Below, in pieces: positions 3,114 through 40,731 of a stretch of DNA of 64,000 nucleotides (its first letter is position 1; the number at the start of each line of letters is the position of its first letter). The notes under the pieces were generated by a model that was not told the origin of the DNA, ran no database searches, and saw nothing but the letters and a program-made list of their open reading frames with translations. The position numbers and the translations under genes are program-made. The DNA comes from a virus (Duplodnaviria > Heunggongvirae > Uroviricota > Caudoviricetes): IMG/VR virus record IMGVR_UViG_3300047159_000064. One strand, written 5' to 3'.

Positions 3114-3129
3114 GACCTGTCCTCCCTAC

Positions 3130-3175: not shown

Positions 3176-3194
3176 GAGATTATTCGCCGGAAGT

Positions 3195-10972: not shown

Positions 10973-10976
10973 TCAC

Positions 10977-11147
10977 TTCGCTTCGACGGGCACGACGTAG
11001 CATCTGCATTCGCCGTCCGTGTCCTCGCGGCGCTGCTTCACGGCTTTGTTGGCCTCAGGCTTGGTGTCGAACTGGCCGAGCGATTCGTGGTTGCCCTCGT
11101 AGTCGTCGAAGGCCTCGAATTTCTTTTTCTCGCCCATAGGCTACTCC
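10977..11147 (-). CDS. small hypothetical protein (about 56 aa, MGEKKKFEAFDDYEGNHE...), TGA stop
   Basis: Manual translation; coordinates approximate. Confidence 0.3.
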
Positions 11148-13864: not shown

Positions 13865-14579
13865 TTACGCGACTTTCTTCTCGCAGTATCCGCGAAGCAC
13901 CCTGAGCACGGTCTGGCTGGTGATCGTCCCTACGGCGAAGCCCGACGACACGCCGGCCCATTTGACGCCGCAGTAATTGGCAGAATGCCGCATCTTGTCC
14001 CTGAACGCGCTTTCCTTGATAGTCGAATCGGCCAGGCCTTCGAGAACCATGACGTCGCGGAATTCCTTGACTTTGCCCTCGGGGACCTTGAGCGTGACGC
14101 CGGTCAGCTCGAACGCTTCGGCGACAGGCGCCTCGGACGCCTGAGAGGACTCGGAGACCTGCGCGACTTCGGTCTGAGCGGACTCCGGATGCGGGCCTGC
14201 CGTCAGCGTGAGATCGCAGAGGCTCAAGGGCGAACTTAGACGAAGACGGGATGGCCGGAAGGCTGTCGATTTCGGACAGGTTGCCGGCTATGGCTTTGAC
14301 GTCCGACCGATAGCTGAGGTATCTCTTGATCAGCGAGACGAATTTCATCGTCTGGACCGGAGTCATGTTGCCCATGCCAAGGATGTGGTACAGGTCGATC
14401 ATGACTATGCGGCTCATGATGCCGGATTCCGCGCGGCAGAACGTCCGCAGCTTTAGCAGATCGGCGACGGTCATCTTAGACAGATCGTCCGTCGACTTGA
14501 CGTGATTGAGGTACATGCCGCAGAGCGAGACCCTGTCGGCCAAAGACTTCATGATAAGATCGTAGCTTTCTTTCTTCAT
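13865..14579 (-). pseudogene. hypothetical protein with an apparent frame break near 14215-14230 (N-part in frame of 13827-14579, C-part = ORF 13865-14227)
   Basis: Protein-like sequence changes frame; the continuation of the N-part frame is Arg-rich junk. Confidence 0.4.
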
Positions 14580-14824
14580 CGCATTGCCTCCTGGGCGTCA
14601 GCCTTCTTGACGAGGACGCCTCCGTCGTACTCCTGCTTCCAATAGTGGTAGTTGCCGCCTCGATCGTAGAACTCGATGAGGTAATGGCTTTCCGAATCCT
14701 TGTAGCTGTGGTAGTCCGTCGTGTCGCTGACTATGCGGAACATCTCGTAGAACCCGACGTGCCCGCAGATCCTGATTTTGACGAAATCGCCTTCTTCGGC
14801 TTTGACCAGCTTCTTGCCTTCCAT
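14576..14824 (-). CDS. hypothetical protein (82 aa); genuine TGA stop
   Basis: ORF track. Confidence 0.5.
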   Translation of the reverse strand: MEGKKLVKAEEGDFVKIRICGHVGFYEMFRIVSDTTDYHSYKDSESHYLIEFYDRGGNYHYWKQEYDGGVLVKKADAQEAMR

Positions 14825-14826
14825 GA

Positions 14827-15090
14827 TCAGACTCCCCTCACGTTGATGACTTTGGCTTCCACCTTGACGCCGGGGGCCGGAGAGAACCAGCCTTTGGCCA
14901 CGGTGAAGTCCGTGGCGGCCACCAAAGAGCTCGACAGGCTGCCGATGAACAGGTCTTCGTCGTCTATCTGAGCCAGGCCGTATTGCCAGCCTTCGTCGCA
15001 GAACACGACGATCTCCCCGACTTTCGTCTCGTGGAGCAGGTATTCGCCGACGGTCTTTCCGTTGTGGGCGATGTAGTGATCGATTTCCAT
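14827..15090 (-). CDS. hypothetical protein (87 aa); genuine TGA stop
   Basis: ORF track. Confidence 0.5.
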   Translation of the reverse strand: MEIDHYIAHNGKTVGEYLLHETKVGEIVVFCDEGWQYGLAQIDDEDLFIGSLSSSLVAATDFTVAKGWFSPAPGVKVEAKVINVRGV

Positions 15091-15557
15091 CAGTCCGCCT
15101 CCTTGGCCGCGGCCAGCTCGTTGAAGATGCCGTCTATCGCCTCGAACACGGCCGGCAGCATCAGCTCGTTGATCTTCTTGGCCTCGTCTTTGTCTTCGAC
15201 GGCCCGAAGGTAGGCTTTGCTCGTGTAGTTGCTCCCGCCCTTAAGCATGACCTCGGCGGCCGACTTAAGCGTGTAGAACGAGTCCATGAGGTCGCAGAGC
15301 TTCCAGAGGTCCTCGTCGGAAATCGACATGACTCTGAACTTCTTCTTCATGGCGTCGAACGCGCTTAGCCCAGAATCCGCGACCGTGCAATCCCAATGGG
15401 TGTGCGACTTGAACGACGGGCGCCCTGTGGCGTTGTATCCTTCGAGGTAGCCGAAGCCCCAGTACCAACCGCAGTCCCAGCTCGGCTTAGGCATATAGAC
15501 CTTCTCGCCGTCTTTCGTGACGCCGAGGTAATATCCTTTTTCTGTGATGAGTCCCAT
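15090..15557 (-). CDS. hypothetical protein (155 aa); genuine TGA stop
   Basis: ORF track. Confidence 0.5.
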   Translation of the reverse strand: MGLITEKGYYLGVTKDGEKVYMPKPSWDCGWYWGFGYLEGYNATGRPSFKSHTHWDCTVADSGLSAFDAMKKKFRVMSISDEDLWKLCDLMDSFYTLKSAAEVMLKGGSNYTSKAYLRAVEDKDEAKKINELMLPAVFEAIDGIFNELAAAKEAD

Positions 15558-18730: not shown

Positions 18731-21131
18731 CTAAGCCTCCAGCACCATGCTCTTCAGCTGGTCCGAGAAACGCTCGTTAGGCACGTCGTCTATGACGTAA
18801 TCGCTGAGATCCTTCTTCTCGCCGACTATCTTCGCCACCCGCTCGTCTATCGTGCCGGCGCAAGAGAGCACCACGACGTTCGCCGGCCTCTGATTGGTGA
18901 CCCTCCATATGCGATCCGTGGCCTGAGAGAACTCCGAGTACGTGTAAGGGGTGTCCAAGGCTATCATGTAGCTGGCCGCGTTGAGCGTTATGCCGGTCGA
19001 GCATTTGCCGAACGTGCCGATGAACGCCTGCTCCTTCGGGTCGGTCTGGAACCTCTCGACGTCGGCGGAGAACACGTCGTCCGGCGTATCTCCAGTGTTT
19101 ATCGAGCCTTTGACCTTGCCTCTCAGCATGTCCGCCAGCTCGTATATCGATTCTTTGAACGTGCCGAAAACGACTACTTTCTCGCCCTGTGACGCGAGCT
19201 CCTCGACGAGCTCGGCGCAGCGCTCCAGCTTGGTGGCAGGTATCTGCTGGGAAGTCAGTATGCTCGGGCAGGACGTGGCCTGCCTGAGCCTGGTCGTGAG
19301 GGCCAGCAGGTTCGCCGGCTTCAGATCTATCTTGTCGGCCTCTTCGCGGACGCCGTCGGCGATCGCGTCGTAGAAGCGCCTGTGCTCGTCGTCCATGTCG
19401 AGCGATTCGTAGGTCACCGTCTTAGGCGGCAGAGAGTCCCTGACCTGGTCGAGCGTCCTCCTGAGGCTGCAGGAGTCGAGCTCCTCCTTCAGCAGATCGA
19501 GGTTCTTGTATCCGACTATCTGGCTGTCGTTGAATCCGCCGAATTCGCAGTATTGCGACTTGAACATCGTCAGCGTCGATCTGTCGTTCTCCGTCCACGA
19601 CAGCGGGACGTACATCGAAATCGGGCTGTTGGTCAGAAGGGTGCCGGTGGCTGCGACTTCGAACGGGGCCTTCAGCTTGAGCAGATTGGTGCCCTGGGTC
19701 GATGACTTAGTCGCGCAGTTATGGACTAAAATGCCGTTCGCATAGAAATTATGGTTGCCCTCGACCGCGAGATCGTAAACTGGCTCTGCTGCTATTACTT
19801 TTTTAGATACTAACTTTGCCATTTTTATGCCAGCTCCCGCCGCCGCTTAAGCCCAGATACCTATTTAATGCGCGAATTTGATTGTATGGGATAAGATAGA
19901 TAAGTTCCAGATGCCTATTAGGGCAATTGTTTTTGTATTTGAGATAATCTCGCTTATAATCTTCGATCTTTACGCCATGAGCCGATATAAAAGCTTCCCA
20001 GTGTAACTTTTTTCTTTCCTTGCCGGAAATCTTTGCGGCGTCTTTCATCCTTTGTCTGTACTCTGGCGTTTTTCACAGCTCTGCTGAGCGCTCTTGCATT
20101 GCGGCTATGCCTTTAGCAATCTTTATATCATCGTCCGCAGTTAAATCTTTTGCCTTTACCCAGCCGCGGTTGTTGGTGTATATCTTGTGCGACGCCGTGC
20201 ATTTTAGCTTTATTGTTCTGTTATCGTCGATCAAGGTCAGCTCCAGAAGCGGCTCTCTCGGCTGCGATTCCGTTACGGACGAAATCTGCCGAAATTCGTT
20301 TTGCCCTGTTTTCTTATTGTAGGAAAGCACCTTAGGCAGAGCTTTTAATTGGCTGATTTCGCCGATAGTAAATTTTCCGGCGTCGGTCAATACTACAGAA
20401 TCTCCGGTAAGGCATTTATGGATTTCGTCGACCGCTATCATGCCGAATTTCGTCTCTGACTTCAGGAAGGCCGCGGTCACCGCGGGGGACCTGAGCGTCT
20501 CGACGTTCGTGATCACGAAAAACTCGGCGATCTCGCCTTTGAGCTCTTTGGCCCTCTCAGGCAGAGACGCGTAATGCACCCTGCCCTTCTTGCTTATCCT
20601 CTCGCCTAAGATCCTGCAGCTCTCGTTCGAGAACCTGGAGATCTCTTTCTTCCAGTTCTGCTTGACCGCGTTGACCCCGCAGACTATGAAGCAGTGCTCT
20701 ATGGCCCCTCTGCGCTTGAGGGCTTCGGCCAGTCAGATTATTTCGGCAGTCTTGCCCAGGCCCATCGAGTCGAGCAGAAGCCACTTGGGGTGTTTTAGCC
20801 CGAAGTCGACCGCTTCTATCTGATGCCTGAACGGCGGCTGCTTGAGGCCGTCTATCTCTTCCTGGGACAGCGGGCGGAATCCCCCTGATTCCGACTCGCC
20901 TTCCGGCCAATCCAGGAGATTCAGCCTCACCTGATCGATGAAAACGGCCGAGTCCAGCAATTGGGCCAGGCAGCTCGCCGGTATCTCTCAGATCCGGTCT
21001 TTCTTGTGGTAGTATCAGTTCGGCAGGGCCTTCAGCGCGGCGACCAAGGCCTCGCTGTACTCCGACCTGACCACGAAGCTGGAAAGCCCGCTGACTTTGC
21101 CCGGCGGGCTGACTTCCGTAATCTCTATCAT
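18731..21131 (-). CDS. SNF2-family helicase containing an intein (with HNH-like endonuclease) after motif II; 4 in-frame TGA codons (about 21015, 20988, 20733, 20073) and a +1 frame break at an A5 run near 19822-19850
   Basis: GLGKT Walker A; DEIHK then CLTGDS intein N-terminus; VYDLAVEGNHNFYANGILVHN-C intein C-terminus; ATGTLLTNSP motif III; QATDRIWRVTNQ motif VI; ORFs 20733-20960, 20073-20579 and 19803-20048 share one frame, separated only by TGA. Confidence 0.65.
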
Positions 21132-23738: not shown

Positions 23739-23859
23739 TTTTACCGACGGAGCTCGGACGGTCGGCCCTTCCGCGGAGTCGGAGCCGAGCTCTCGAAGTC
23801 GCTCTCCCTTCGGATCGGACTTCGCATAGTTTAGCTTTCAATGTTTTAATGACTTGCCG

Positions 23860-24330
23860 CTGATAGGCCGCGAGCGGCGGATGAAAGCCTGCGCGACAGG
23901 CGAGAGCCCTTGACCGCGGATGCGTCAGACAAGCCTGCGTCTGATGAGCCCTGTCGTCGAGTGGCGCCGCAGAAGGGCGTCGAGCCGCCAGATGCCGATA
24001 TGCGATGTCGGCCGCGTCTGCCTAGTGTCATGCGATGAGCCATATGATATTATTCCTGAAGCGCCTGGATGAGCGCCTGCGAGCATGAAAGCCTGTGAGC
24101 GCCAGATGAGCGATGAGCCCGATGGCCTTTGCTTAGCCTGCGACGAAGCGCAGTCCGTGATGAGGGCGGTCTTAAGCCTGCCCATGAAGCCTGAGCCTGG
24201 CGCCCCATGATCTCCTGACCTGGCTAGCAGGCCTATGGCCGGATGAGCCTTTGGCCTGACGGCATTGCGTTATGCGAGCCATGCCTTATGCCTGATATGC
24301 GACGCTTGCCTCTGTGCTTATGGTTAACGC
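23860..24330. repeat. non-coding iteron-like region: GATGAGC at least 7 times plus ATGAAAGCCTG twice, in different frames
   Basis: Repeat units fall in all three frames, so this is DNA-level rather than protein-level repetition. Confidence 0.5.
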
Positions 24331-24621
24331 TTATGATGCCATGGCGGTATTATCCCTATATGATATTGCTTATTGAAGCCGCGGCTGACCAATGTCTGTT
24401 AGCCTGTAGGGATACGGATGTTTTCTCCGTGTTTTGTTCATGGCCGGGGAAAAAGAAAAAGGCCGGTCCAGCGCTTCGGTCCTTCATTCTGAGCCCGTCG
24501 GCTCGAAAACTTGGATCGGCCTTCCCGGTCGATGTTGCTTTATTATACGGCTTTTCCTAAAATTCGGTCGTCTTTATCCCCTTGCTCCTGGCTATGAGCA
24601 CGCAGTAGGAAGTCCCGCCGG

Positions 24622-24882
24622 TCAGCCCTTTGCCGGTATGCCAGAGCACCTCGTCCGCCTTCGGTCTTTGCCGACTGTTACGAATGTGAACGTCAGCGTC
24701 GTATGGCCTTCGTGGTATTTTCCTGACACCGACCCGTCTATCCTGAATTCGTCGAACGAGCCTTTTTCTATCAGAGCCCTGTCCATCAGCGCCCGTATCT
24801 TGTCGCAGACGTCTCCGACCTGATCGGACGACACCGTCATGTAGACGCAGCGCTCAGGCGCGCCTTCTTTAGCCTTATCCAT
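24622..24882 (-). CDS. hypothetical protein (86 aa); C-terminal residues look frame-shifted or junk
   Basis: ORF track. Confidence 0.4.
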   Translation of the reverse strand: MDKAKEGAPERCVYMTVSSDQVGDVCDKIRALMDRALIEKGSFDEFRIDGSVSGKYHEGHTTLTFTFVTVGKDRRRTRCSGIPAKG

Positions 24883-25243
24883 TTATCTGCTTAGAAAGCT
24901 CCGGGTTCTCGTAGACGTTGCCCAAAACCTCCAGATCCTCCAGCTCATGGACGCTGTACACGCCAGAGTCTCCCCAGTATTCCACTTTCTCGATGTAATA
25001 AGGCCGCATCGAGCTGTAGTCGATGCCTTTGACGACGTCGCCTTCGTAGATCTCTTTGCCGTGGACGTCTTTCATGCCGGTTGACTGCATGAGCACGCAA
25101 TCTCTTCCGACGACCTTCGAAAGCCCGTCGTAGTCGCTGTCTTCGCACGAGGTCTGGATTATGCCTCCGCCAGCCAGAAGCAAATCGCTGACTCCTACCA
25201 TCTTTTTCTCTTTGATGAGCCAAGCCCTGAATTTCAATGTCAT
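24875..25243 (-). CDS. YopX-like phage protein (C-terminal GNVYENPEL)
   Basis: C-terminal motif typical of the YopX family. Confidence 0.5.
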   Translation of the reverse strand: MTLKFRAWLIKEKKMVGVSDLLLAGGGIIQTSCEDSDYDGLSKVVGRDCVLMQSTGMKDVHGKEIYEGDVVKGIDYSSMRPYYIEKVEYWGDSGVYSVHELEDLEVLGNVYENPELSKQING

Positions 25244-25270
25244 GTTAAATCACTCCTGACAGATAATGGT

Positions 25271-25933
25271 TTATCTGTATTTTATCCCTGCGCCTCTGAT
25301 GCGGAAGTTTTTTATCTCGAGATCTCTGTCGCCGTTTCCGCATTCGCATGCCGCTTCAGGGCTGACCGTTAGGACGATCACCTTTTCGGCGGTCTCTTCT
25401 TCGTCTGTGTACCCTTCGCCTATGATGTTGCCCATCTCGTCTATCTGCTCGCGGTAGACAGGCACCAGGATCTTCCTGTAGGCGAAGCAATATCCGCGCG
25501 GCGCTTTGGTCAGCCGCTTAGCGCAGGCTTCGTCTTCGTACAGCTCCGTTATCCCGGTCTGCTCGATTTGGCTGAGCTTGCTCAGGCGGTACGCGAACAG
25601 GTCTTTGCCTTTGGCGTAGCTTCTCAGCTTTTCCAACGACGGCTTTCCGGTCCGCTCGTATGCCTCTTGCTGGCTTATCGACTGCGGCCTGAATCCGTGG
25701 CAGGTACCTAACGAGCATTCGTTTTTTATGGTGAACGCCTCTTCGCAATCGCCTTCCAGGCAGATAGACCCATTCAGCGGATAATAGTCCATAGAGATAT
25801 GGCTGCCGAATTTGCCGGCTGGGCATTTCAATAAGACAAGCCGATGCTTGCTTAGCGCGAATCCGCCTTTGCCGTTCCATTTCTTATAATGGAGGAACGG
25901 GCCTTTTTTGGCGCAATAGATCAAAGCTATCAT
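25271..25933 (-). CDS. hypothetical Cys-rich protein (220 aa)
   Basis: ORF track. Confidence 0.5.
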   Translation of the reverse strand: MIALIYCAKKGPFLHYKKWNGKGGFALSKHRLVLLKCPAGKFGSHISMDYYPLNGSICLEGDCEEAFTIKNECSLGTCHGFRPQSISQQEAYERTGKPSLEKLRSYAKGKDLFAYRLSKLSQIEQTGITELYEDEACAKRLTKAPRGYCFAYRKILVPVYREQIDEMGNIIGEGYTDEEETAEKVIVLTVSPEAACECGNGDRDLEIKNFRIRGAGIKYR

Positions 25934-26187
25934 TTCTGGTCTCCCTTTACGACGTCTCCGTTTTTTATCATGTCGAACAGCGCTTCCAGCGAATCGTCGT
26001 TAACTCTGGCGTCTTCTGTGCTTGTGTAGACGCTGATCCAGCAGCTATCTGAATACTCGACGTACAGCATGATCGCGCATCCGTCGTCGCACCGCAGCTT
26101 TCCGAACCCTGTGTCGCAGTCAAAGCTGAATTCGTACTTGTCTATGAATTCCTGCAGGCCTATTTTTTCGAGATTTACTTTAAGCAT
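25930..26187 (-). CDS. small hypothetical protein, paralog of 26439-26687 (ML.(I/V)N..KI...F..KY...NGDVV..GD)
   Basis: Shared N- and C-terminal motifs; TGA stop immediately followed by TAG. Confidence 0.5.
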   Translation of the reverse strand: MLKVNLEKIGLQEFIDKYEFSFDCDTGFGKLRCDDGCAIMLYVEYSDSCWISVYTSTEDARVNDDSLEALFDMIKNGDVVKGDQK

Positions 26188-26227
26188 CTATTTTATTATA
26201 CCGTGTTATGCTTCGCGCGTAAGCGTT

Positions 26228-26458
26228 TTATTGCTGTTTTTCCGTTTTTATCTTGTTTTTCTGAAACGCGCAGATGCTCGCAAGCCTGTTTGCCTGCTCA
26301 AACGATATTACAGACTGCTTGCCGCTGACGGCCGAGTTAAGCTCGCTCATCAGCTCTTCTGTGACGCAGATCGTCGACTCCTGAGAAGTCGCGCATGCGA
26401 CGTACAGCTCGTCGAAGCTTCCTATAGGTTTTTCCATTCTATCTGTCTCCTGTGACAA
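26228..26458 (-). CDS. hypothetical protein (76 aa)
   Basis: ORF track. Confidence 0.45.
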   Translation of the reverse strand: MSQETDRMEKPIGSFDELYVACATSQESTICVTEELMSELNSAVSGKQSVISFEQANRLASICAFQKNKIKTEKQQ

Positions 26459-26687
26459 CGACGTCTCCGTTTTCTATCATCGCGCCTAGCACGTCCAGAT
26501 CGTCCATGAAGATGTATCCTTCGACGGTGTCTCTGACGAGCACGTTGACTATGCCGAAGCATTTTGATATCTCTATCTGAACGTTTCCGTTTAGGCCCAG
26601 CGCGACCATGTAGGCGCCTTTTGACGCCATATGGTATTTCTCGGCGAAAGCCTTGTCGTCTATTTTGCTGTAGTTTATCCTAAGCAT
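26439..26687 (-). CDS. small hypothetical protein, paralog of 25930-26187
   Basis: ORF track. Confidence 0.5.
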   Translation of the reverse strand: MLRINYSKIDDKAFAEKYHMASKGAYMVALGLNGNVQIEISKCFGIVNVLVRDTVEGYIFMDDLDVLGAMIENGDVVVTGDR

Positions 26688-27048
26688 TCTGTTTTGTGGC
26701 CTCCCACAGTATCAGCAGTGAAATCGCTATCTGGGCGTAGTGCATCAGCTGATCTGCCATTAGGTTGGTCCTTCCGTCGTTTTTCGCCTTGTCTATGAAG
26801 AAGTGCGCCATGACGTTCACTGCGAACAGCAGAACCATCCACCAAGGCGAAGCGAAGCCGAGATACCATATGAACGGCATGAATACGCACAAGCCTCAGA
26901 TTAGGCAATGGCCTATGAGGACGAACGCTCAGCTCGTTTTGTCTTCTGCAGGTCAGCTGCTCTCTTTTTTGAACTTCGCCTGGAAATCGTTTTGAAAGAA
27001 GAAATCGCCTAACGCGTGGCCGCAAAAAGCCAGAACGCACACGGTCAT
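26680..27048 (-). CDS. Trp-rich membrane protein with 3 in-frame TGA codons (about 26953, 26929, 26896), all in one frame
   Basis: Manual translation: MTVCVLAFCGHALGDFFFQNDFQAKFKKESS*PAEDKTS*AFVLIGHCLI*GLCVFMPFIWYLGFASPWWMVLLFAVNVMAHFF...; the ORF track only gives its 3-prime 70 aa. Confidence 0.6.
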
Positions 27049-27058
27049 GAAATTCACG

Positions 27059-27343
27059 CTAGTCTTCCTCCAGTCTGTATAGCCTGCCGCTTTTGTCTTT
27101 GAGCAGCTCGGCAGGCTTGCCGAATCTGTCTAATATGGCCTTGAACGCGGCCTTGCTTTTTTCTGAGCTGAGCTCGCTCATGAACGAGCGCCCGTCCGAC
27201 CAAACGTCTTTCATCAGCCTGTCGTATTCGGCGCTTCCGTCGGAGCTTTCGCAGCACAGGCCGTCGTCACGGCATGAGCAAGCGCCGTCCTTGTTGTAAG
27301 GGCATTTCCATTCGTTGCAGGATTCTACGTATACCTTACGCAT
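27059..27343 (-). CDS. Cys-rich small protein (94 aa)
   Basis: ORF track; CNEWKCPYNKDGACSCRDDGLCC. Confidence 0.45.
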   Translation of the reverse strand: MRKVYVESCNEWKCPYNKDGACSCRDDGLCCESSDGSAEYDRLMKDVWSDGRSFMSELSSEKSKAAFKAILDRFGKPAELLKDKSGRLYRLEED

Positions 27344-28172
27344 CTTTTTTGTCCTCGACTATCTGCGGCTCTTTCTCATGCCGCTTGTCGTATTCTTTTT
27401 GGATGTCTTCGCAGCTCTTGGCCGAGAATATCCTCTTCATGCCATCCTGATCGAACAAGCCGGCGAACGCGATGGCCGAAGCTGTCTCTCTGCTTTTTTC
27501 GTCGTCGTTGAAAAACCACTTCTTGCCGCTTTCGTAATCGTCGCGCTCTTTGCCTTGGAAGCTTTCTGAATCGTAAGAATAGCAGCCGCCGAAAAGCCCT
27601 TTTTCCAGCAGATAGCTTATCACTCCAGCTTTTCTGGCTATCTCTGTGTCGTAGTCTGGGAAAGCGTCTTCGAGCAGCATGAGCTTGGCTGACAAAAGGC
27701 CGGCCTTCATCATCGCCATGTATTCTACCGAGAACTTGAAGGCCTTGTATTTTTTATGCAGGTCTTCTATGTTCTGCCGGTCCCAGCAAAGCCACGCCTC
27801 GTCGTTTAGGCCTGCGTGCCTGACTATGGTCGTGAGATGGGTCATCAGAAGCAAATCGCAGCCGTTTCCGCGGAGGTCGGCGCTGAGCGGCTGAAGGAGA
27901 TCGACGTCAAGCCAATTGAGCGTTATCTTCAATGAGTCCGCCTTGCCTTTCAGAATGCCGAAAAGCCTAAGCGCTTTGTTGTAGCCGGTGTTTTTGTAGC
28001 CGTCAGGCATGTATTCAGCGCTTTCGTAGGCGACGGTTATCTCAGAATATCTGCAGCTTTCTATCAGCTTGAGCAGAACGGCGGTGCTGTCGTATCCGCC
28101 CGAGAAAAGCAAAAAAGCCTTCTTTGCTTTTTCCTGCACGACTTCTTTTACTTCTTTGCAGTCTTCGCTCAT
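27336..28172 (-). CDS. PP-loop ATP pyrophosphatase family protein (SGGxDS), QueC/ExsB-like candidate
   Basis: LLFSGGYDST motif near the N-terminus. Confidence 0.45.
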   Translation of the reverse strand: MSEDCKEVKEVVQEKAKKAFLLFSGGYDSTAVLLKLIESCRYSEITVAYESAEYMPDGYKNTGYNKALRLFGILKGKADSLKITLNWLDVDLLQPLSADLRGNGCDLLLMTHLTTIVRHAGLNDEAWLCWDRQNIEDLHKKYKAFKFSVEYMAMMKAGLLSAKLMLLEDAFPDYDTEIARKAGVISYLLEKGLFGGCYSYDSESFQGKERDDYESGKKWFFNDDEKSRETASAIAFAGLFDQDGMKRIFSAKSCEDIQKEYDKRHEKEPQIVEDKKDA

Positions 28173-28174
28173 GG

Positions 28175-28900
28175 CTACTCGCCTGCCTTTCCGTCTTTTC
28201 TTGAGGCCAATTCTTCAGTCAAAGCTTTTTCGGCGGCTTCGAATGCGTCGAAGTCGCATCCGGCTATTCCCTTTCTGTTCTCCTCGGAATAGCGAGACGG
28301 CAAGACGCTCTTTATTTCATCGGCGAAAAACGCTAGATTTTCAGCATTCATGCCTTTGGCGTACTTTTTAGAGAAGTCTTCGCATAGCGCGCTGACATAG
28401 GTAAAACGGCCCATGGCGTAGTCTAATGCGTCTCCAAACAGCATTTTGAGCTCTGCCTGAGTCAGCGTTTCTTTCTTATCAAGCTCTCTGTCGAAATCGT
28501 CGCCGAAATCAAGGTTTGAGAATTCTTTTGACGCTTTTTCAAGCACTTTGCTTTGGTCGGCTACGCTGTACCATTCTGCGGCGCCTCTGTCGAAGCATGC
28601 AGCTCTGCAAAATCCGCCGAGCCGTCTGACGGCGTCGACGTTCTCTTGCTGGTAGCCGCTGAAGTCATAAAATACTTTCTCTTGGTTGTCTACCTCTTCT
28701 GCGGCGTCGCGCTGGAGTCCGCCGAGGTCGCGGCCTGATATCGCCTTTATATGCTTTTTTAGGAACTCAAGCATCGCCAGGATTTCTTTGTCGTCTTTTC
28801 TGAACGAGTCTCTTACGGCCTGAAATAGGATATTAGACAGGTCGTTGTAGCCGATCTCTATCGTCTCTGCTTTGTTTTTTGCCGTTGTCTTTTTTTTCAT
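28175..28900 (-). CDS. hypothetical protein (241 aa)
   Basis: ORF track. Confidence 0.5.
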   Translation of the reverse strand: MKKKTTAKNKAETIEIGYNDLSNILFQAVRDSFRKDDKEILAMLEFLKKHIKAISGRDLGGLQRDAAEEVDNQEKVFYDFSGYQQENVDAVRRLGGFCRAACFDRGAAEWYSVADQSKVLEKASKEFSNLDFGDDFDRELDKKETLTQAELKMLFGDALDYAMGRFTYVSALCEDFSKKYAKGMNAENLAFFADEIKSVLPSRYSEENRKGIAGCDFDAFEAAEKALTEELASRKDGKAGE

Positions 28901-28901
28901 G

Positions 28902-30539
28902 TTAGTTATTCCTCTTGTAAGTCAAGTCCATGGATTTGTAGCGCGTGGTGTCTAAGAAGCCAAGCTTTTCCCAGTCCTGCTTTTTGCGATTGTAGAATTC
29001 GTGCGCTATGACGTTGTCCTCGTCGATCATGAGATAATGGTGTATCTTGGCGCCGTCGCTCCAAGATCCTTCATTGTCGCGCACCGAGTATTCAGGCGCA
29101 TCAGAGAACGTGTTGGCGAGCAATTTGCCTCCAGGCTTAAGCATGCTCTCAGCCACGGCTATTTCTTCGTTCGTAAGATAGTTTATGGAATCTTCTGCGA
29201 TGATGAGATCGAGCTTGCCGCTTAGTTTTTTAGCCGCGCTTATGCAAGTGTCGAAATCGCTTCCTTTGACGAATGGGTCTATGGAATACGTCGTTCTTTT
29301 TGGCGCTGTGTTTCCGCCTATTTCCGCAGACGTCAAATGAAAGCAGTTCGCCACCTCAGCAGCAGAGGCCAGCCTTTCGTTCTTTTTGCTGAAATACCGA
29401 GAAGGGAAATCTTCGTAGTATCTGCTCCAATCGACGCTTTTGAAATCATGGGCGGCGATATAGCCGTGGTACTTTTCCATCAGCGCGGTTTTGCCCGACG
29501 AAAAAGCGGACGATACCGTTTCTTCTTCCTCTTTGGTGCCTGGGAAAACGTATTCGGCAGTTTTTTCAGCTTTTATCTCTTCGTGTTTGTGAATGACGTA
29601 ATCGTGGCCGTTCAAGGCTGCGGCCAAAGCAGGCGCGTTCAACGTAGGTTTGCCGTCTGCTTTCACCGTCAGCGTGTTTTTGTCTACGCTCATCACCCAG
29701 ACAGGATCCCCGACGTGGCCTCTGCTCGTTGTCACGAAGCCTTCGCTCTCTTTCAGCTTTATGGCTATCGTGCCGTATTTCGCCGTTCTTCTTTCTTCGT
29801 ATTCGCTTACAACGCCTTTCGCGAAGCTGAGCTCGTTCTTTGCGGCTTGGCTCATGTCGGCAGGCGCATCAACGACGTCTGTCTTGTAGTATTCCTGATT
29901 TATGGCGCGGATCATGAATTTTATGTGATCATCGAAAGACATCGGAATAACGGAGCCATCTTGCGTGAGCGCTATCTTTTTTATTTTCGCGTCAATCGGC
30001 CTATTGGCGAAAATCACGTTGGCTTTGGAATCCTCTAACGTTTTTTCGGCGGCCGAGATCAGCTCTTCGTCTGTCGCTGCATCGAACAGCTTATAGCCTA
30101 TGAGGCAGCATCTTTTGTTCTTCTTTTTTATGACGTCTATCGCTCTAGGCGCGATGGTGAATTCTATGTTGAACTTCGCGCCTTCTTTGTACAAGTGAGA
30201 AGGAAATTTTGAATCGTAAGGATGAGTAGGAGCCAAATTAGCCACGGCTGCGGCCATAACGAAAGCATCATAATTCTCTGCGTTATTGCTGAACCATTTA
30301 AAGTAATCGTAAACATCAGATACGCTTACTGTACGTATGATGTCATTGCAAGCGCTCGGCAATTCTGTTCGCTCCCATTTGACGATGGTCACGTTCAGCC
30401 CGGCGGCGGCGAGGCGCCTTGCAGTTTCGAAAGCCAATCCGCCTTTGAATACGTTAGTAAGATATTTAACTGAATCAAGCTTCGCCGGGATAGGCCCGCA
30501 GCTCACTACGACGTTTTTAGCTAATTTGTTGATATACAT
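28902..30539 (-). CDS. two-domain enzyme: N-terminal CoaB/DFP-like nucleotide-binding domain fused to a C-terminal methyltransferase-like domain; possibly leaderless (ATG 7 nt after TATAATATA)
   Basis: VVVSCGPIPAKLDSVKYLTNVFKGGLAFETARRLAAAGLNVTIV matches the DFP/CoaB pattern; C-terminal LDLIIAED...GGKLLANTF. Confidence 0.4.
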   Translation of the reverse strand: MYINKLAKNVVVSCGPIPAKLDSVKYLTNVFKGGLAFETARRLAAAGLNVTIVKWERTELPSACNDIIRTVSVSDVYDYFKWFSNNAENYDAFVMAAAVANLAPTHPYDSKFPSHLYKEGAKFNIEFTIAPRAIDVIKKKNKRCCLIGYKLFDAATDEELISAAEKTLEDSKANVIFANRPIDAKIKKIALTQDGSVIPMSFDDHIKFMIRAINQEYYKTDVVDAPADMSQAAKNELSFAKGVVSEYEERRTAKYGTIAIKLKESEGFVTTSRGHVGDPVWVMSVDKNTLTVKADGKPTLNAPALAAALNGHDYVIHKHEEIKAEKTAEYVFPGTKEEEETVSSAFSSGKTALMEKYHGYIAAHDFKSVDWSRYYEDFPSRYFSKKNERLASAAEVANCFHLTSAEIGGNTAPKRTTYSIDPFVKGSDFDTCISAAKKLSGKLDLIIAEDSINYLTNEEIAVAESMLKPGGKLLANTFSDAPEYSVRDNEGSWSDGAKIHHYLMIDEDNVIAHEFYNRKKQDWEKLGFLDTTRYKSMDLTYKRNN

Positions 30540-36821: not shown

Positions 36822-39800
36822 TTATTTCTCTCCCAGCCTGGCTTTAAGCTCTTCGACTTCTTTTTTAAGCTTTTGTATTTCGTAGATCTCTAAGGCGTGA
36901 AGGTCGGTGTAGTTAAGCGCATAGACGCTCTTGCCGTCAATGAAGTTTTTCGACACTATGCCGAAATCAGTCGGGTTAAGTCCTGCCGCGCTCATCGCGC
37001 TTTCGACGTCTTGGGCAACGAAGCCGAATCTAGTCTTGGCTCTGTTGTTTTTGAATCTGAATGACGCAGGCTTAAGCCCGTCGAATAAAGCGTCATATCC
37101 AGATAAGGCGTATTCTATGCCTGTTTTCAGCCTTCTATCAGATGTGTTAGATACCGAATCGGCGGTAAGCTCATTGACCCTTATGGCAGCTTTTTTGCTG
37201 TCTGTGCCGAAGCGTATGCCGTTTATCAGCGCGCCGTCAAGCGAAATTGTTTTTTCTGTCGCTGATATAAGCTGATAGTCTTTTGTTATGCTTATGGTGT
37301 CGAAGCTAATGCTGGCTACTCCAATTACTGTGCCGTTCGACGGTGGAGTTATGTCGCAGTATAGGCTTGTCGGCGTATAAACGTAATTGTTTAATAGCGC
37401 GCTATACGGCATATAGAAGACTTTTGTTTGAGCTGATGTCGCGGTGCTGTATGATGTGCCGGCCGATGTTGTTCCTGCTGCATATTTGTATGCGTAGATT
37501 ATCGTCATTTTTACAGCTATGTTTCCTGAAGTGTTTATTGTTCCGAAACCGAAGTTATCAGCGCCGAGGGCATTGCCGTTGTAGCTGTAGTCATTTAATG
37601 AATTTTGGCGCGTCGTGCTGCTGTCTTTTACATTCTTTATGCTGCCTATTGTTACTCTGTTGTTTACGCACTCATAACCAGCGATTGTCGGCGTCGTTAC
37701 GTAGATTAGTGATATTACATTATTAGTGGTAGAGACATAAGCAGAAATAGGTAAATCGCAGATTGTTGTGCTTGTATCGCTATTGCCAGCGATATTGGCG
37801 CCGGTTATGTTGGCGCGATTTATGTCAAGGCCTGTCATGAATTCTCCGCCGTCTAATGCCAAAGTTGATCCGCTGGCGGTCAGTATACCGTCCAACATTG
37901 TCAGTTTTGGCAAGGCATTTGTGACTGCGTAATCTAAGACATTGTGCATTTTCAGTGTAACAGAATCACCAAAAGTAACCTCAGTTGTAGGATCTCCTAC
38001 TGCAGGCTTTTTAGGCGCGACGATAAATCCGTTTTTTCCGCCTATTACGAGCGTGCCTGGAAGATATAAATCATTATCTTTTGATATGGCACCTTCGCCG
38101 CCTTGTATTGAAAAAAGGTAGTCTCTTGTATTTATGCTGTCTCAACTGCTTACTTTAACGAATACTTCATTTTCGCAATCCCATCTGTAGTAGCATCCAT
38201 CTGTGCTGTTTAAATAGCAAGCAGTGACTTTTTCTGTTATGTCTGTTCCAGTGCTATTTTTAAAAGTTGTGCCGTTTTGCTCCGGTTTGCTGCCGAATAA
38301 ATCGGTGCCAAATCATTCTCAGTCTTGCGTTGTCCCGCTTGATTCTACATTCTTAGCGGCTTGAGTTATGGTATGTGATACCAAATACGGAGCTATGTTT
38401 ATATTTCCTGTCTCAGTAAGCTGCGTAGAATAAACTCTTTGCGTCACTAAAAACCATTGATTGTCGTTTTCTAACGGTACGTTTTCTGACGGCAGGCCAA
38501 ATGATTCTTTTTTGTCCTTTACGTCGCCGCTGCTGTCTGTTTCTTGTATTAGTCCTATTCTGACCGAGCCGTTTTTCACGTCTAAATTGTTGATGTTGGC
38601 GTTGTTCGCGTAAAGGTTTCCTAAATTGTTCACGCCGAAATTATCGCCAGCCGCGAATACTAGGTTAGAAACTTTATTGTCGTTTATGCTGAGGTACTTT
38701 GTTCCGGTGCCGGTCGACATCAAAACGGCGCCGTTTGTGCTGCTGTTTAGCGTTATGGCGCTGTTGTCAGCCTTAGGAAGCGTATAGCCGTTTTGAAGTA
38801 TATTGGCGCCTATTTCGAAGCCGCCTATTCATTTGTTATTTTTTTTATCGAAGCTGGCGCCTATTTGTCCGTGTTCTGCTATTATGTTTCCGGTGATGTT
38901 GGCGTTGTTCGCGTAAAGGTTTCCTAAATTGTTCACGCCGAAATTATTGCCTGCGGCGAATACCAGGTTAGAAACGTTGTTGTCGTTTATGCTGAGGTAC
39001 TTTGTTCCGGTGCCTGTCGACATCAAAACGGCGCCGTTTGTGCTGCTGTTTAGCGTTATGGCGCTGTTGTCAGCCTTAGGAAGCGTATAGCCGTTTTGAA
39101 GCACGCTATCGCCTATTTCGAAGCCGCCAGCACCTGAGGAGTCAGCGCCTATTTGTCCGGATTTTGCCACTATTTTGCCAAATACACTGAGCCCTTCGCT
39201 GTTGGCAACCAGTATGTCTTTCTGAATCTGATCCCCATTTTCATCCGCTATTTTTGCATAGACGGTTCATTCGCTGGCGTCAAGGTTCCATCCGAACCCT
39301 GTCACGTCATTTTTTTTGTTCAGTTTTGCGTCTACCGCTGCGTTTGTGCTTTCTATGCTTGTGGCGTTGGCATCAGCCTTTTTATCCACCGTAGTTACTT
39401 CACTGCGTATGCTTTTAGCCGTTTGCTCTATTAGGCTGGTTATATTTTTGTTTTGATTGTCCTGCGAGGTGATTACCTGCTTGAATCTGTTGCCGTAGTC
39501 TCTGTCCATCTGCCCGAGGTCTTTGTCGAGCGTGCTGACTTTTGCCGTAAGGCTTGACAGCGAAAAATAAGGCGCCGTCGTATTAGGCGTGTCTTTGTCT
39601 AGGCTGCTGCTCATTTTCGTGTCGAACGGTATGGTCGCCGATTTGCTGGTCGCCGACGTTTCGACGTTTATCGTTCCTCTTGGGTCAGCTTTTTCTAATT
39701 CTGCGCCTAGGTAGAGCTTTCCTATCACGACGGGCAGCTCCATTAGGTTGTTTTCGAAAGCTACCCAGACCACGTCGCCGACTTTGTAGCCGTTGTAGCT

Positions 39801-39929
39801 TCCAGGCGTATTGGATATGGTCGCTACGCCGTTTATCTCATCGTTTCCCGCGGATTCGAAGAACGGCATCCTGACGGAGCAGGTGTTGCCGCTTAAGTCT
39901 ATAGAAGTTATCTGGCCTTTTGTAATCAT
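36822..39929 (-). CDS. tail fibre protein (about 1035 aa) with tandem repeats of about 165 aa and a C-terminal S74 intramolecular chaperone domain; about 6 in-frame TGA codons (about 39267, 38829, 38319, 38313, 38142)
   Basis: ORFs 39267-39929, 38829-39170, 38319-38723 and 36822-37949 share one frame and are separated only by TGA; C-terminus SDRRLKTGIEY...GFVAQDVE...LKKEVEELKARL. Confidence 0.65.
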
Positions 39930-40053: not shown

Positions 40054-40731
40054 CTATGACAGCTCGCTTATCGCGGATTCTAGCTCGCTTTTGAGCTCGG
40101 CTATGAACTGCTCTTTGGTGAATATGCGCCCTGTCTCTTCTATTATGCCGGTTATTCCGCGGCACAGCGCGTATTTTCCCGTCAGCCTTTTGAAGATGTC
40201 CTTCTCAGGCGAGTATTCCAGCGTTATTACCAGGTCTTCTGACAAAACGCCGTTTTCTAAGGCATACTCGTTGCCCATGAACTTTTTGTTCTCGTACAGC
40301 ACGTCGTTGCCTATTTTTTTAAGCTTCGATCCGTCTGCGCCTAATTTCACGAGCGTTGAGCAGATCGTGTCCGCCGCCATCGTTCTGGCCTTTTGCAGAT
40401 CGTCCGGCGTTCATGAAGCATCGATTTTTATGTGGGCCGTGACTGGCACGGAGTTTTTATTGACCAGTATGTTATATCCTGTTTTGAAGCTGGCTTCGTG
40501 TTTTATGTAGGGAAGGTTGCAGCTGCGCAAGCCGTCTGGCTCCGTCTTTATCAGCGTGTCCGATTTGAGCGGCCGATTCCATCAGAACGGCTCTTGGACA
40601 TCGCCTATGGCTATGACGTTTTCGCCCAGGAACTTGCCTGTGTTCCTTCATTCGAATTGGTTCTTCAGGACGTCGGGTATGACGCCTTTAGAAGGCGCGA
40701 CTTTCTCGACCGTTACTTTTATGTTCTTCAT
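40054..40731 (-). CDS. hypothetical structural protein (about 225 aa) with 3 in-frame TGA codons, including a TGA-TGG pair
   Basis: Single frame from ATG 40731 to TAG 40054: ...KNQFE*RNTGKF...QEPF*WNRPL...IDAS*TPDDLQKARTMAADTICSTLVKLGADGSK... (ORF 40054-40380 is its C-terminus). Confidence 0.6.

What the first reader, a model, noticed from the sequence alone, without database searches (positions are those of the whole stretch)
26680..27048. Trp-rich small membrane protein that is readable only if TGA is a sense codon
From ATG near 27048 a single frame runs to TAG at 26680 with three TGA codons. Translating TGA as W gives hydrophobic helices flanked by aromatic residues (SWAFVLIGHCLIWGLCVFMPFIWYLGFASPWWMVLL). 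The ORF track saw only the last 70 codons. It lies at the early-to-middle boundary, so it may be an early-expressed recoded gene or a holin/spanin-like late function.
Basis: seen in the sequence. Interest (0 to 1): 0.6.

Follow-up and report, generated by a model that had tools for sequence, protein, structure and literature searches.

The report
Phage membrane-protein gene using TGA as tryptophan
This is a real 125-codon phage gene for a small four-helix membrane protein of the uncharacterised DUF3307 family, and it is complete only if its three in-frame TGA "stop" codons are read as tryptophan, which makes it a clean new example of the stop-codon recoding already described in large gut phages.

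Summary
On the minus strand one frame runs from 27057/27048 to the TAG at 26680. It has exactly three in-frame stops, all TGA.

- **Family:** the read-through product is a full-length DUF3307 / PHROG 2470 membrane protein. The family's invariant residues lie on both sides of the TGAs.
- **TGA reads as Trp:** in the closest homologues all three TGAs fall on Trp or aromatic columns.
- **Selection:** a strain 96% identical keeps all three TGAs. Of its 16 substitutions, 15 are at third codon positions (pN/pS about 0.04). It has also lost the internal ATG that gene callers used for the "C-terminal ORF".
- **Start:** the likely start is the GTG at 27057, with GGAGG 9 nt upstream.
- **Rest of the window:** other genes also carry in-frame TGAs at Trp columns (tail fibre, tail-module genes, SNF2 helicase). 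At least eight genes end at TGA with ATGA/TGATG start overlaps, two of them in the same operon. This fits a standard-code host with phage-driven TGA-to-Trp suppression, as in Borges et al.
- **Not found:** no suppressor tRNA is present in the sequence I could reach.
- **Holin/spanin idea:** not supported by homology or by neighbouring genes.

Verdict: a new member of a known kind, of modest interest.

The parts
26680..27057 (-). DUF3307-family membrane-protein gene: 125 codons plus a TAG stop, with three in-frame TGA codons read as Trp
   Evidence: The frame is shown. It matches Pfam PF11750 at 44 bits (cut-off 23) over profile positions 3-112 of 127, and PHROG 2470 at E=1e-22 over 7-116 of 119. 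Homologues are aligned.
27055..27057 (-). Probable GTG start codon. It lies 1 nt after the TAG of the upstream gene (27059-27061). The ATG at 27046-27048 is the alternative start.
   Evidence: the GTG has GGAGG at a 9-nt spacer, and the ATG has no Shine-Dalgarno sequence within 3-14 nt. The upstream ORF 27059-27343 is listed.
27067..27071 (-). Shine-Dalgarno sequence GGAGG
   Evidence: In this phage, 32 of 48 checked gene starts have a match of at least 4 nt to AGGAGG, mostly 7-10 nt upstream.
26953..26955 (-). In-frame TGA no. 1 (codon 35)
   Evidence: It aligns with W in 3 of the 4 closest full-length homologues, within the motif K-x-x-[FYW]-W.
26929..26931 (-). In-frame TGA no. 2 (codon 43)
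   Evidence: It aligns with an invariant W in 9 of 9 cultured-phage homologues. Among 31 homologues the column holds W 12, Y 17 and 2 gaps.
26896..26898 (-). In-frame TGA no. 3 (codon 54)
   Evidence: It aligns with W in 4 of the 4 closest homologues. Among 31 homologues the column holds W 24 and H 7.
26680..26687 (-). TAG stop (26680-26682), overlapped by the ATG (26685-26687) of the downstream 82-aa gene
   Evidence: The full-length frame fills the space between its neighbours exactly. With only the 70-aa ORF, about 165 nt would be left non-coding.
24622..30539 (-). Operon that holds the gene. In order: DFP-like 545 aa, 241 aa, PP-loop-like 278 aa, 94 aa, DUF3307, 82 aa, 76 aa, 85 aa, 220 aa, YopX 122 aa, 86 aa.
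   Evidence: ORFs are, and families. A terminator-like hairpin at 30605-30584 lies just upstream.
25930..26187 (-). Gene in the same operon that ends at a TGA. The TGA overlaps the next gene's ATG (ATGA) and is followed at once by TAG. TGA acts as a terminator here.
14576..15557 (-). Three consecutive genes (15090-15557, 14827-15090, 14576-14824), each ending at a TGA that overlaps or abuts the next start (TGATG, TGATCATG, ATGA). The read-through frames are non-coding junk.
   Evidence: The coding scores downstream of these TGAs are -15, -28 and -41.
36822..39929 (-). Tail-fibre gene (1035 codons, with a C-terminal Peptidase_S74 chaperone domain) carrying 5 in-frame TGAs. It is supporting evidence that TGA is a sense codon in this genome.
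19803..21131 (-). SNF2 helicase N-extein plus intein part, with 4 in-frame TGAs. Codon 48 is W in 31 of 32 homologues.
40054..40731 (-). Tail-module gene with 3 in-frame TGAs. Further TGA-bearing genes are 41181-42416, 44995-45516, 51108-52469 and 62590-63957.

Best explanation
The interval 26680-27057 (minus strand) is a functional gene of a large (about 200 kb) uncultivated myovirus. It encodes a 125-residue inner-membrane protein with four transmembrane segments, of the DUF3307 / PHROG 2470 family.

Shown:
- The three in-frame TGA codons (codons 35, 43 and 54) are decoded as an amino acid. That amino acid is almost certainly tryptophan, as in genetic code 4.
- The same genome uses TGA as tryptophan in several tail genes and in a helicase.
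- It also uses TGA as a true terminator in at least eight other genes, two of them in the same operon.

Inferred:
- The host uses the standard code.
- The phage supplies TGA suppression from a part of the genome outside this window, for example through a tRNA with anticodon UCA, possibly together with RF1 or TrpRS.
- Three TGAs within 20 codons mean that full-length protein appears only when suppression is efficient. Before that, translation ends after 34 residues.
- The gene is therefore gated at the level of translation, probably to late infection, independently of when its operon is transcribed.

The biochemical role of DUF3307 is unknown. The conserved residues are H-x3-D-x3-Q...K, H-x3-D-x2-K and D-Q-x2-H. 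They sit at the ends of the helices, facing the two Lys/Arg-rich loops. This suggests a metal-binding or catalytic site at the cytoplasmic face of the membrane, not a holin-type pore.
For: 1. Full-length family match only with read-through. Pfam DUF3307 scores 44 bits against a cut-off of 23, and PHROG 2470 gives E=1e-22. The 70-aa ORF alone scores 20.6 bits, below the cut-off.
2. Invariant family residues lie on both sides of the TGAs. In 122-aa numbering, H11, D15, Q19 and K27 lie upstream, and H82, D86, K89, D99, Q100 and H103 lie downstream.
3. The TGAs fall on Trp or aromatic columns.
   - Codon 43 is W in 9 of 9 cultured-phage homologues.
   - In the four closest full-length homologues, the three sites are W in 3 of 4, W in 2 of 4 (Y in the other two) and W in 4 of 4.
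   - Among 31 homologues, codon 54 is W 24 and H 7, and codon 43 is W 12 and Y 17.
   - In the SNF2 helicase, one TGA is W in 31 of 32 homologues.
   - Summed profile log-odds over six TGA columns: W +10.9, Y +7.2, H +2.4, G -8.6.
4. Purifying selection on the whole frame. Strains L056 and L057 (two samples, 96% identical) have 16 substitutions. Fifteen are at third codon positions (P=8e-7) and 14 are synonymous, giving pN/pS of 0.038. Four of them lie upstream of or between the TGAs. All three TGAs are kept.
5. Start and stop architecture. GGAGG lies 9 nt before GTG 27057, which is 1 nt after the upstream stop. The gene's stop overlaps the downstream ATG. The internal ATG at 26880 is lost in the sister strain.
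6. The TGAs are not a sequencing error. The sequence is 100% identical in five independent assemblies.
7. Genome-wide context.
   - There are 22 in-frame TGAs against 136 TGG codons in 48 curated genes. One of the 22 is the 25930 TGA, which I read as a terminator, so 21 TGAs in 8 genes are scored as sense.
   - Those 8 genes include essential tail genes.
   - Apart from the TGA-TAG tandem at 25930, no curated gene to the right of 26 kb ends in TGA.
   - Genuine TGA terminators with ATGA/TGATG overlaps and junk read-through frames are found elsewhere in the window.
8. The published model fits. Large gut phages (roughly 150-210 kb) that recode TGA to Trp and infect standard-code hosts have been described. 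Clade means for the share of genes with in-frame stops range from 26% to 71%, against 17% of the curated genes here. A suppressor tRNA was detectable in only 35% of those genomes (bioRxiv 10.1101/2021.08.26.457843).
Against: - No suppressor tRNA, RF1 or TrpRS was found in the window, in 10 kb to its left, or in the other loci of this phage. Only about 75 of roughly 200 kb could be inspected, so the decoding machinery is inferred.
- Against more distant cultured-phage homologues, the codon-54 column is His in 7 of 9. Trp there is a feature of a subfamily.
- The sister strain carries D102N at an otherwise invariant Asp.
- DUF3307 genes are visibly broken in some other large phages. The family is therefore dispensable and pseudogenes do occur.
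- The excess of TGA over TGG in this gene is only marginal (3 of 7 against 19 of 151, Fisher P=0.057).
- The timing ('late') and any toxicity are not shown by anything here.
- No protein-level evidence exists.
Confidence: 0.82

Rival explanations
1. Pseudogene: a decaying DUF3307 gene that has picked up three nonsense mutations and is no longer expressed as a full protein.
For: DUF3307 homologues in other large IMG/VR phages are sometimes broken. L046 has GGA changed to TGA at a conserved Gly. L052 and L053 have CAA changed to TAA plus a frameshift. The sister strain has D102N at an invariant Asp.
Against: - All three stops are TGA, all lie at Trp or aromatic columns, and there are no frameshifts or TAA/TAG stops. 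If the ancestor had TGG at these sites, the chance that three random single-step nonsense hits are all TGG to TGA is about 4e-3.
- In the 96% strain, 15 of 16 substitutions are third-position, pN/pS is 0.038, and this holds for the segments before and between the TGAs.
- Essential tail genes of the same phage carry the same kind of in-frame TGA.
Confidence: 0.04
2. Only the C-terminal 66-70-residue ORF (from TTG 26892 or ATG 26880) is translated, and the upstream part is untranslated leader.
For: Standard gene callers call exactly this. A weak GAGG lies 13 nt before ATG 26880.
Against: - The fragment lacks the invariant H-x3-D-x3-Q...K half of the family and falls below the Pfam cut-off.
- ATG 26880 is replaced by ATC in the sister strain, where the callers fall back to a 52-aa ORF.
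- TTG 26892 has no Shine-Dalgarno sequence.
- Substitutions in the supposed leader are all synonymous third-position changes in the read-through frame.
- This reading would leave about 165 nt non-coding in an operon whose genes otherwise abut or overlap.
Confidence: 0.03
3. TGA is a sense codon here but encodes something other than Trp: glycine (code 25, with a Gracilibacteria or Absconditabacteria host), cysteine or selenocysteine.
For: Phages using code 25 exist. One helicase TGA column has Gly in 9 of 39 homologues. One DUF3307 column is His in distant homologues.
Against: - Summed log-odds over six aligned TGA columns are W +10.9 against G -8.6 and C -3.2.
- The closest DUF3307 homologues have W at all three sites.
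- TGA is also used as a real terminator with start overlaps. That is not expected for a host in which TGA is always sense; code-25 phages average 90% of genes with in-frame TGA.
- I judge 21 Sec codons in tail and helicase genes implausible, and the aligned residues are not Cys. This is my judgement, not a tested result.
Confidence: 0.04
4. The protein is a holin, pinholin or spanin-type lysis effector. Its TGAs delay lysis, as proposed for recoded lysis genes.
For: The protein is small and has several transmembrane segments. It has the highest TGA density in the window, 24 per 1000 codons against 1.5 per 1000. Borges et al. found a strongly TGA-recoded transmembrane protein in the Agate lysis cassette. 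The 70-aa fragment gives a very weak Phage_holin_1 hit, E=0.12.
Against: - No endolysin or other lysis gene lies in the operon or next to it.
- The family has an enzyme-like set of invariant His, Asp, Gln and Lys residues. My recollection is that Pfam also lists it in bacteria outside phages; I did not check this here.
- Homologues in cultured and uncultured phages lie beside exonuclease, phosphoesterase, replication, nucleotide-kinase and methyltransferase genes.
- PHROGs files the family under 'moron, auxiliary metabolic gene and host takeover'.
Confidence: 0.1

Closest known systems
TGA-to-Trp (genetic code 4) recoded gut phages infecting standard-code hosts, such as the Jade, Sapphire and Agate clades (Borges et al., bioRxiv 10.1101/2021.08.26.457843)
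   Same: - The genome is large (a contig of about 200 kb).
- In-frame TGAs align with Trp.
- Only a minority of genes are recoded, mainly structural ones.
- Other genes are compatible with the standard code.
- A small transmembrane protein is strongly recoded.
- No suppressor tRNA is detectable, which was also true for 65% of the published code-4 genomes.
   Different: - Clade membership could not be tested, because the window holds no terminase and no relatives turned up in IMG/VR, GenBank phages or the metagenome scans.
- The recoded membrane protein here is a DUF3307 member in a non-lysis operon. It is not the holin/spanin-like family found in the Agate lysis cassette.
- Sense and terminator TGAs coexist in one operon here. 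I did not find that point stated in the parts of the paper I read.
Pfam DUF3307 (PF11750) / PHROG 2470 'membrane protein', including members in jumbo phages such as Phabio, RP12/RP31 and PA1C, and in Enterococcus Herelleviridae
   Same: The length, the four hydrophobic segments and all invariant residues are shared. The score is above the Pfam gathering threshold.
   Different: This member has TGA in place of TGG at three Trp positions. It belongs to a subfamily with Trp rather than His in the 'H-C-x-I-[HW]-G-L' motif. No function is known for any member.
Mollicutes-type code 4 and code 25 of Gracilibacteria/Absconditabacteria (host-wide TGA reassignment)
   Same: TGA is read as an amino acid.
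   Different: In this window TGA also terminates at least eight genes, with classical ATGA/TGATG coupling. GC content is 51%. The aligned residues point to Trp, not Gly. All of this fits phage-imposed, probably time-dependent suppression and not a recoded host.

Membership tests
DUF3307 (Pfam PF11750) / PHROG 2470 | Profile score above the curated threshold over most of the profile | tested here: met
   Pfam gives 44.0 bits with W and 44.9 bits with X, against a cut-off of 23, over profile positions 3-112 of 127. PHROG 2470 gives E=1e-22 over 7-116 of 119.
DUF3307 (Pfam PF11750) / PHROG 2470 | Conserved constellation H-x3-D-x3-Q...K in the N-terminal half, and H-x3-D-x2-K...D-Q-x2-H in the C-terminal half | tested here: met
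   All of these residues are present and invariant in the alignment with 9 cultured-phage homologues. They are also present in the alignments.
DUF3307 (Pfam PF11750) / PHROG 2470 | Small (about 110-130 aa) polytopic membrane protein | tested here: met
   The protein has 125 aa. Kyte-Doolittle hydrophobic segments lie at about residues 1-21, 43-66, 70-90 and 103-121.
Phage with TGA-to-Trp recoding on a standard-code host (Borges-type alternative coding) | In-frame TGAs inside genes whose homology and coding signal continue across them | tested here: met
   This holds for DUF3307, the SNF2 helicase, and the tail fibre and other tail genes.
Phage with TGA-to-Trp recoding on a standard-code host (Borges-type alternative coding) | TGA aligns best with Trp in homologues | tested here: met
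   W has the highest summed log-odds (+10.9), and G scores -8.6.
Phage with TGA-to-Trp recoding on a standard-code host (Borges-type alternative coding) | Phage-encoded TGA suppressor tRNA, possibly with RF1 or TrpRS | tested here: inconclusive
   ARAGORN found no tRNA in the window or in loci L010, L011 and L016-L018. The window has no Rfam hit.
Phage with TGA-to-Trp recoding on a standard-code host (Borges-type alternative coding) | The host uses the standard code, so part of the genome is standard-code compatible | tested here: inconclusive
   The evidence is indirect. At least eight genes end at TGA with ATGA/TGATG overlaps and junk read-through frames. The host itself was not identified. 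One helicase relative lies on a contig with SpoIIP, which hints at Firmicutes.
Holin / spanin lysis proteins | Location in a lysis cassette next to an endolysin | tested here: not met
   PHROGs, Pfam and PADLOC scans of the neighbouring genes found no lysis genes. Neighbours of homologues elsewhere are not lysis genes either.
Holin / spanin lysis proteins | Significant match to a known holin or spanin family | tested here: not met
   The only hit is Phage_holin_1 at E=0.12 and 13.3 bits (cut-off 22), on the 70-aa fragment. The full protein gives no such hit.
Holin / spanin lysis proteins | Lethal membrane permeabilisation on expression | not testable with these tools
   This needs expression of the allele with TGA changed to TGG.
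Code 25 (TGA = Gly) phage of a CPR host | TGA aligns with Gly, nearly all genes carry in-frame TGA, and TGA never terminates | tested here: not met
   Gly log-odds is -8.6. Only 8 of 48 curated genes carry sense TGAs. TGA terminators are present.
Selenoprotein gene (TGA = Sec) | A SECIS element after the TGA, and Cys or Sec at the aligned position in homologues | tested here: not met
   The aligned residues are W, Y or H, never C. I did not search specifically for SECIS elements. The Rfam scan of the window found nothing.

The most novel reading that the evidence does not exclude
Within one transcription unit the same codon has two roles. It terminates two genes (25930-26187 and 24622-24882) and encodes Trp three times in DUF3307.

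On this reading the phage uses a translational code switch to hold back one specific non-structural, non-lysis membrane protein while its operon neighbours are made. DUF3307 would then be a membrane effector harmful to the host, for example a metal-dependent membrane enzyme or a depolarising or exclusion factor, that must not appear before late infection.

If so, TGA density would serve as a per-gene timer that works independently of transcription. It would also give a first functional handle on DUF3307.
Probability: 0.25. Interest if true: 0.55.

Novelty: new member of a known kind. Interest (0 to 1): 0.3.

Why it matters
- **Annotation.** Every public gene call for this locus keeps only a 52-66-aa stump. 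The word-indexed protein database holds no relative of the full protein. Recoding-aware annotation is therefore needed to see this gene at all.
- **A test case for the code-switch model.** This compact example has three Trp-position TGAs within 20 codons of a conserved membrane protein, and it sits in an operon that also uses TGA as a terminator. The model of Borges et al. could be tested on it with a single small gene.
- **Scope of recoding.** It shows that gating by recoding is not confined to structural and lysis genes.
- **No new principle.** It adds nothing fundamental to what is already published on TGA-to-Trp phages.

Tried and rejected
- **Close relatives of the gene.** The word-indexed protein search, IMG/VR and both metagenome scans found nothing. 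The neighbouring 545-aa and 278-aa genes have no relatives other than the phage itself. No synteny-based comparison beyond strain level was therefore possible.
- **Nearest known phages.** Megablast of 24 kb against GenBank phages gave no hit. The tail sheath found only one weak hit, to a 484-kb uncultured phage.
- **TGA/TGG polymorphism among 96-99.9% strain variants.** None was found; every TGA is conserved.
- **Contigs of helicase relatives (L019-L021).** They hold no DUF3307 gene.
- **Fragment P0049.** It looked like a second recoded homologue but turned out to be uninformative, with a TAG and unrelated sequence upstream.
- **Suppressor tRNA.** It was absent from all the sequence I could reach.
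- **Structure prediction.** I used the 71-aa C-terminal piece instead.
- **PDB, NCBIfam and PADLOC.** These gave nothing informative.
- **Nucleotide after the TGA.** Among sense TGAs the next base is G in 10 of 21; among terminator TGAs it is T or A in 7 of 9. There are too few cases to draw a conclusion.
- **Early idea rejected.** I first thought that codon 54 aligning with His argued against Trp. Closer homologues removed that objection.
Full report
**1. The observation**

On the minus strand, the frame that starts at the ATG at 27048 runs to the TAG at 26682-26680. It contains exactly three internal stops. The raw sequence shows that all three are TGA, at 26955-26953, 26931-26929 and 26898-26896. 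The mechanical ORF list holds only the 70-aa ORF 26680-26892.

The frame is open three codons further upstream, to a GTG at 27057. This GTG lies one base after the TAG of the upstream gene (27059-27343) and has GGAGG nine bases upstream. In this phage, 32 of 48 checked starts carry a match of at least 4 nt to AGGAGG, mostly at 7-10 nt. The ATG at 27048 has no such match in range, and the internal ATG at 26880 has only GAGG at 13 nt. I therefore take the gene to be 26680-27057, 125 codons, with the TGAs at codons 35, 43 and 54. Its TAG overlaps the ATG (26687) of the next gene, so the full-length frame fills the space between its neighbours exactly.

**2. Is it a gene?**

- **Family match.** With the TGAs translated, the product matches Pfam DUF3307 (PF11750) at 44 bits against a curated cut-off of 23, over profile positions 3-112 of 127. 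It matches PHROG 2470 ("membrane protein") at E=1e-22 over positions 7-116 of 119. The 70-aa ORF alone scores 20.6 bits, below the cut-off.
- **Homologues span the TGAs.** tblastn finds homologues in 22 cultured standard-code phage records, and their alignments cross all three TGA positions. In an alignment with nine of them the invariant residues are H11, D15, Q19, A24, K27 and W40 (W40 being the column of the second TGA), then H82, D86, K89, D99, Q100 and H103, in 122-aa numbering. Half of the family signature lies upstream of the first TGA and half lies downstream of the last.
- **Not a sequencing error.** The DNA is 100% identical in five independent assemblies.
- **Strain comparison.** This is the strongest single piece of evidence. 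Two further assemblies, L056 and L057, come from a strain 96% identical in DNA. The gene differs at 16 positions, and 15 of them are third codon positions of the read-through frame. The binomial probability of this is 8e-7. Fourteen substitutions are synonymous, giving pN/pS of 0.038. Four lie before or between the TGAs, and all three TGAs are retained.
- **The internal start is not conserved.** One of the two amino-acid changes is M60I, which destroys the internal ATG at 26880 that gene callers used. In that strain the called ORF shrinks to 52 aa.

**3. What does TGA encode?**

- **Closest homologues.** An exhaustive search with the 71-aa C-terminal piece returned four full-length homologues at 29-41% identity. 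In these the three TGA columns read W in 3 of 4, W in 2 of 4 (Y in the other two), and W in 4 of 4.
- **Wider family.** With 27 IMG/VR loci added, codon 54 is W in 24 and H in 7 of 31 homologues. Codon 43 is W in 12 and Y in 17. Codon 35 corresponds to the second residue of a conserved [FYW]-W motif. MAFFT places gaps inconsistently in this loop, so I rely on the alignment there.
- **Helicase.** In the SNF2 helicase of the same window, one TGA column is W in 31 of 32 homologues. A second is W in the closest relatives, and a third is Y, A or F.
- **Profile scoring.** Profile emissions summed over six aligned TGA columns give W +10.9, Y +7.2, H +2.4 and G -8.6 bits.

Tryptophan is the best reading, and glycine (code 25) is excluded. 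An early concern was that codon 54 aligns with His in distant cultured-phage homologues. This turned out to be a subfamily difference.

**4. The genome around it**

The window is part of a large myovirus. It holds a tail sheath, baseplate and tail fibres, and NrdD, NrdG, glutaredoxin and a flotillin-like protein. It also holds a DFP-like fusion protein, YopX and an intein-containing SNF2 helicase. One assembly of the phage is a contig of 199,817 bp.

- **Sense TGAs.** In 48 curated genes (15,004 codons) there are 22 in-frame TGAs against 136 TGG codons. One of the 22 is the 25930 TGA that I read as a terminator. The other 21 lie in eight genes: the tail fibre (5), 40054-40731 (3), 62590-63957 (3), the helicase/intein (4), DUF3307 (3) and three genes with one each.
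- **Density.** DUF3307 has the highest TGA density, 24 per 1000 codons against 1.5 per 1000 for the set. The uncorrected Fisher P is 8e-4. Against TGG only, the comparison is marginal (P=0.057).
- **Terminator TGAs.** TGA also behaves as a true terminator elsewhere. Three consecutive genes at 15557-14576 end in TGA that overlaps or abuts the next start (TGATG, TGATCATG, ATGA). Genes ending at 11479, 10973, 6265 and 2358 do the same. In every case the frame beyond the TGA has strongly negative coding scores.
- **Both uses in one operon.** Two terminator TGAs lie in the DUF3307 operon itself. The gene 25930-26187 ends in TGA within an ATGA overlap, and that TGA is followed directly by TAG. The gene 24622-24882 also ends in TGA. 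That operon starts after a terminator-like hairpin at 30605-30584.

This double use is what the published model predicts for phages that infect standard-code hosts and impose TGA-to-Trp decoding part-way through infection (Borges et al., bioRxiv 10.1101/2021.08.26.457843). In that study:
- clade means for the share of genes with in-frame stops range from 26% to 71%;
- structural and lysis genes are the ones recoded;
- a suppressor tRNA was detected in only 35% of code-4 genomes;
- a strongly recoded transmembrane protein was noted in the Agate lysis cassette.

I found no tRNA and no Rfam family in the window, in 10 kb to its left or in the other loci of this phage. The rest of the genome was out of reach. 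The decoding machinery is therefore inferred, not shown.

**5. What the protein is**

Hydropathy gives four hydrophobic segments, at residues 1-21, 43-66, 70-90 and 103-121. The conserved polar residues sit at the helix ends that face the two longer loops. Those loops are rich in Lys and Arg, so by the positive-inside rule they are probably cytoplasmic; this is an inference. The pattern looks like a metal-binding or catalytic site, not a holin.

- No solved structure, NCBIfam model or defence model matches.
- Only one paper in the library mentions DUF3307, and only as an annotation.
- The operon neighbours include no lysis genes.
- Homologues elsewhere lie next to exonuclease, phosphoesterase, replication (Phage_rep_org_N, PcfJ/K), nucleotide-kinase and DNA-methyltransferase genes.

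The holin/spanin suggestion therefore has no support, although it cannot be excluded without an experiment.

**6. Mechanism proposed**

- **Shown:** the gene is intact and under selection only if TGA is decoded. The decoded residue fits Trp. The genome uses TGA both as a sense codon and as a stop.
- **Inferred:** the host reads TGA as stop. Early in infection, translation of this gene ends after 34 residues. Once phage-driven suppression is efficient, the full four-helix protein is made. Three TGAs within 20 codons make the yield depend steeply on suppression efficiency. This gates one gene of the operon at the level of translation while its neighbours are unaffected.

**7. Rivals**

- **Pseudogene.** This is unlikely given the selection signature and the exclusive TGA-at-Trp pattern (P about 4e-3 for three such hits). 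DUF3307 pseudogenes do exist in other phages, and the sister strain has D102N at an invariant Asp.
- **C-terminal ORF only.** This is rejected on start evidence, on conservation and on the loss of the internal ATG in the sister strain.
- **Gly, Cys or Sec decoding.** These are rejected by the aligned residues.

**8. Novelty**

TGA-to-Trp recoded phages and DUF3307 are both known. This is a well-supported new member that standard annotation had missed. The one point with some interest is that sense and terminator TGAs coexist in a single operon, with a non-lysis membrane protein as the most heavily gated gene.

Noticed in passing
window 51108-52469 (minus strand), around 51335: This baseplate-region gene has one in-frame TGA at 51479. 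Its frame then turns into Arg-rich junk after '...ATITVQGS'. Another frame continues with protein-like sequence ('ALLRPAILMNYVRLNVIFPGGRKHISSGLYLVTQQQDVINESGYRTTLSMTRIAGDD...TTY*'). This is an apparent frameshift, either programmed or an assembly error.
   Followed up: partly
window 18731-21131 (minus strand); L019, L020: The SNF2 helicase is split into two ORFs around an intein (Hint) segment. One TGA (20075) lies in the intein or endonuclease-like part. Relatives carry GIY-YIG or NUMOD homing-endonuclease ORFs at the same place. Borges et al. report a TGA-enriched intron endonuclease, which is a parallel case.
   Followed up: partly
window 1-24600 compared with 26000-64000: GC content is 53-58% over 4-24 kb but 43-51% over 26-64 kb. 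At 22-24 kb there is a strand switch (plus-strand genes 22553-23550, one with a RyR domain) and the AT and GC skews change sign. Terminator TGAs cluster in the GC-rich part.
   Followed up: partly
window 14576-15557, 11479-12210, 10973-11137, 6265-6672, 2358-2759, 24622-24882, 25930-26187: These genes end at TGA with ATGA/TGATG overlaps. If TGA is read as Trp late in infection, they would gain extensions of 1 to about 185 residues. Three of them have a TAA or TAG back-up stop within 11 codons.
   Followed up: yes
window 27336-30539 (minus strand): A 545-aa protein carries an N-terminal DFP/CoaB-like domain (PF04127), with a long C-terminal part that has no family match. It is followed by a 241-aa protein and a 278-aa protein with a weak QueC-like PP-loop hit. 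The 278-aa protein has no relatives other than itself among 5.8 billion proteins. This may be a nucleotide- or DNA-modification module.
   Followed up: partly
window 31221-32774 and 30755-31153 (minus strand): The phage encodes a flotillin/Band-7 (SPFH) protein with an N-terminal transmembrane segment. It is followed by a 132-aa protein with a C-terminal hydrophobic tail.
   Followed up: no
window 38591-39128 (tail-fibre gene 36822-39929): The gene contains an internal direct repeat of about 235 nt at 94% identity. One copy has a TGA ('NKwIGGFEIG') where the other reads 'SGAGGFEIG'.
   Followed up: no
L046 (about 3001-3360); L052/L053 (about 2900-3279): DUF3307 homologues in other large IMG/VR phages (contigs up to about 220 kb) are sometimes inactivated. 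L046 has GGA changed to TGA at a conserved Gly. L052 and L053 have CAA changed to TAA plus an upstream frameshift. The family is therefore dispensable.
   Followed up: partly
L016/L017 (10 kb to the left of the window): Genes there have Pfam hits to Tad8, HD_4, HNH and CTP_transf_like, and there is a Thg1-like (tRNA-His guanylyltransferase family) gene at the far end. No tRNA genes were found there.
   Followed up: no
L010 compared with window 23855-25290: Strain variation occurs around the YopX gene. In the 200-kb contig one 286-aa YopX-domain ORF is called where the window has separate 220-aa and 122-aa genes. The alignment to the window is interrupted there.
   Followed up: no
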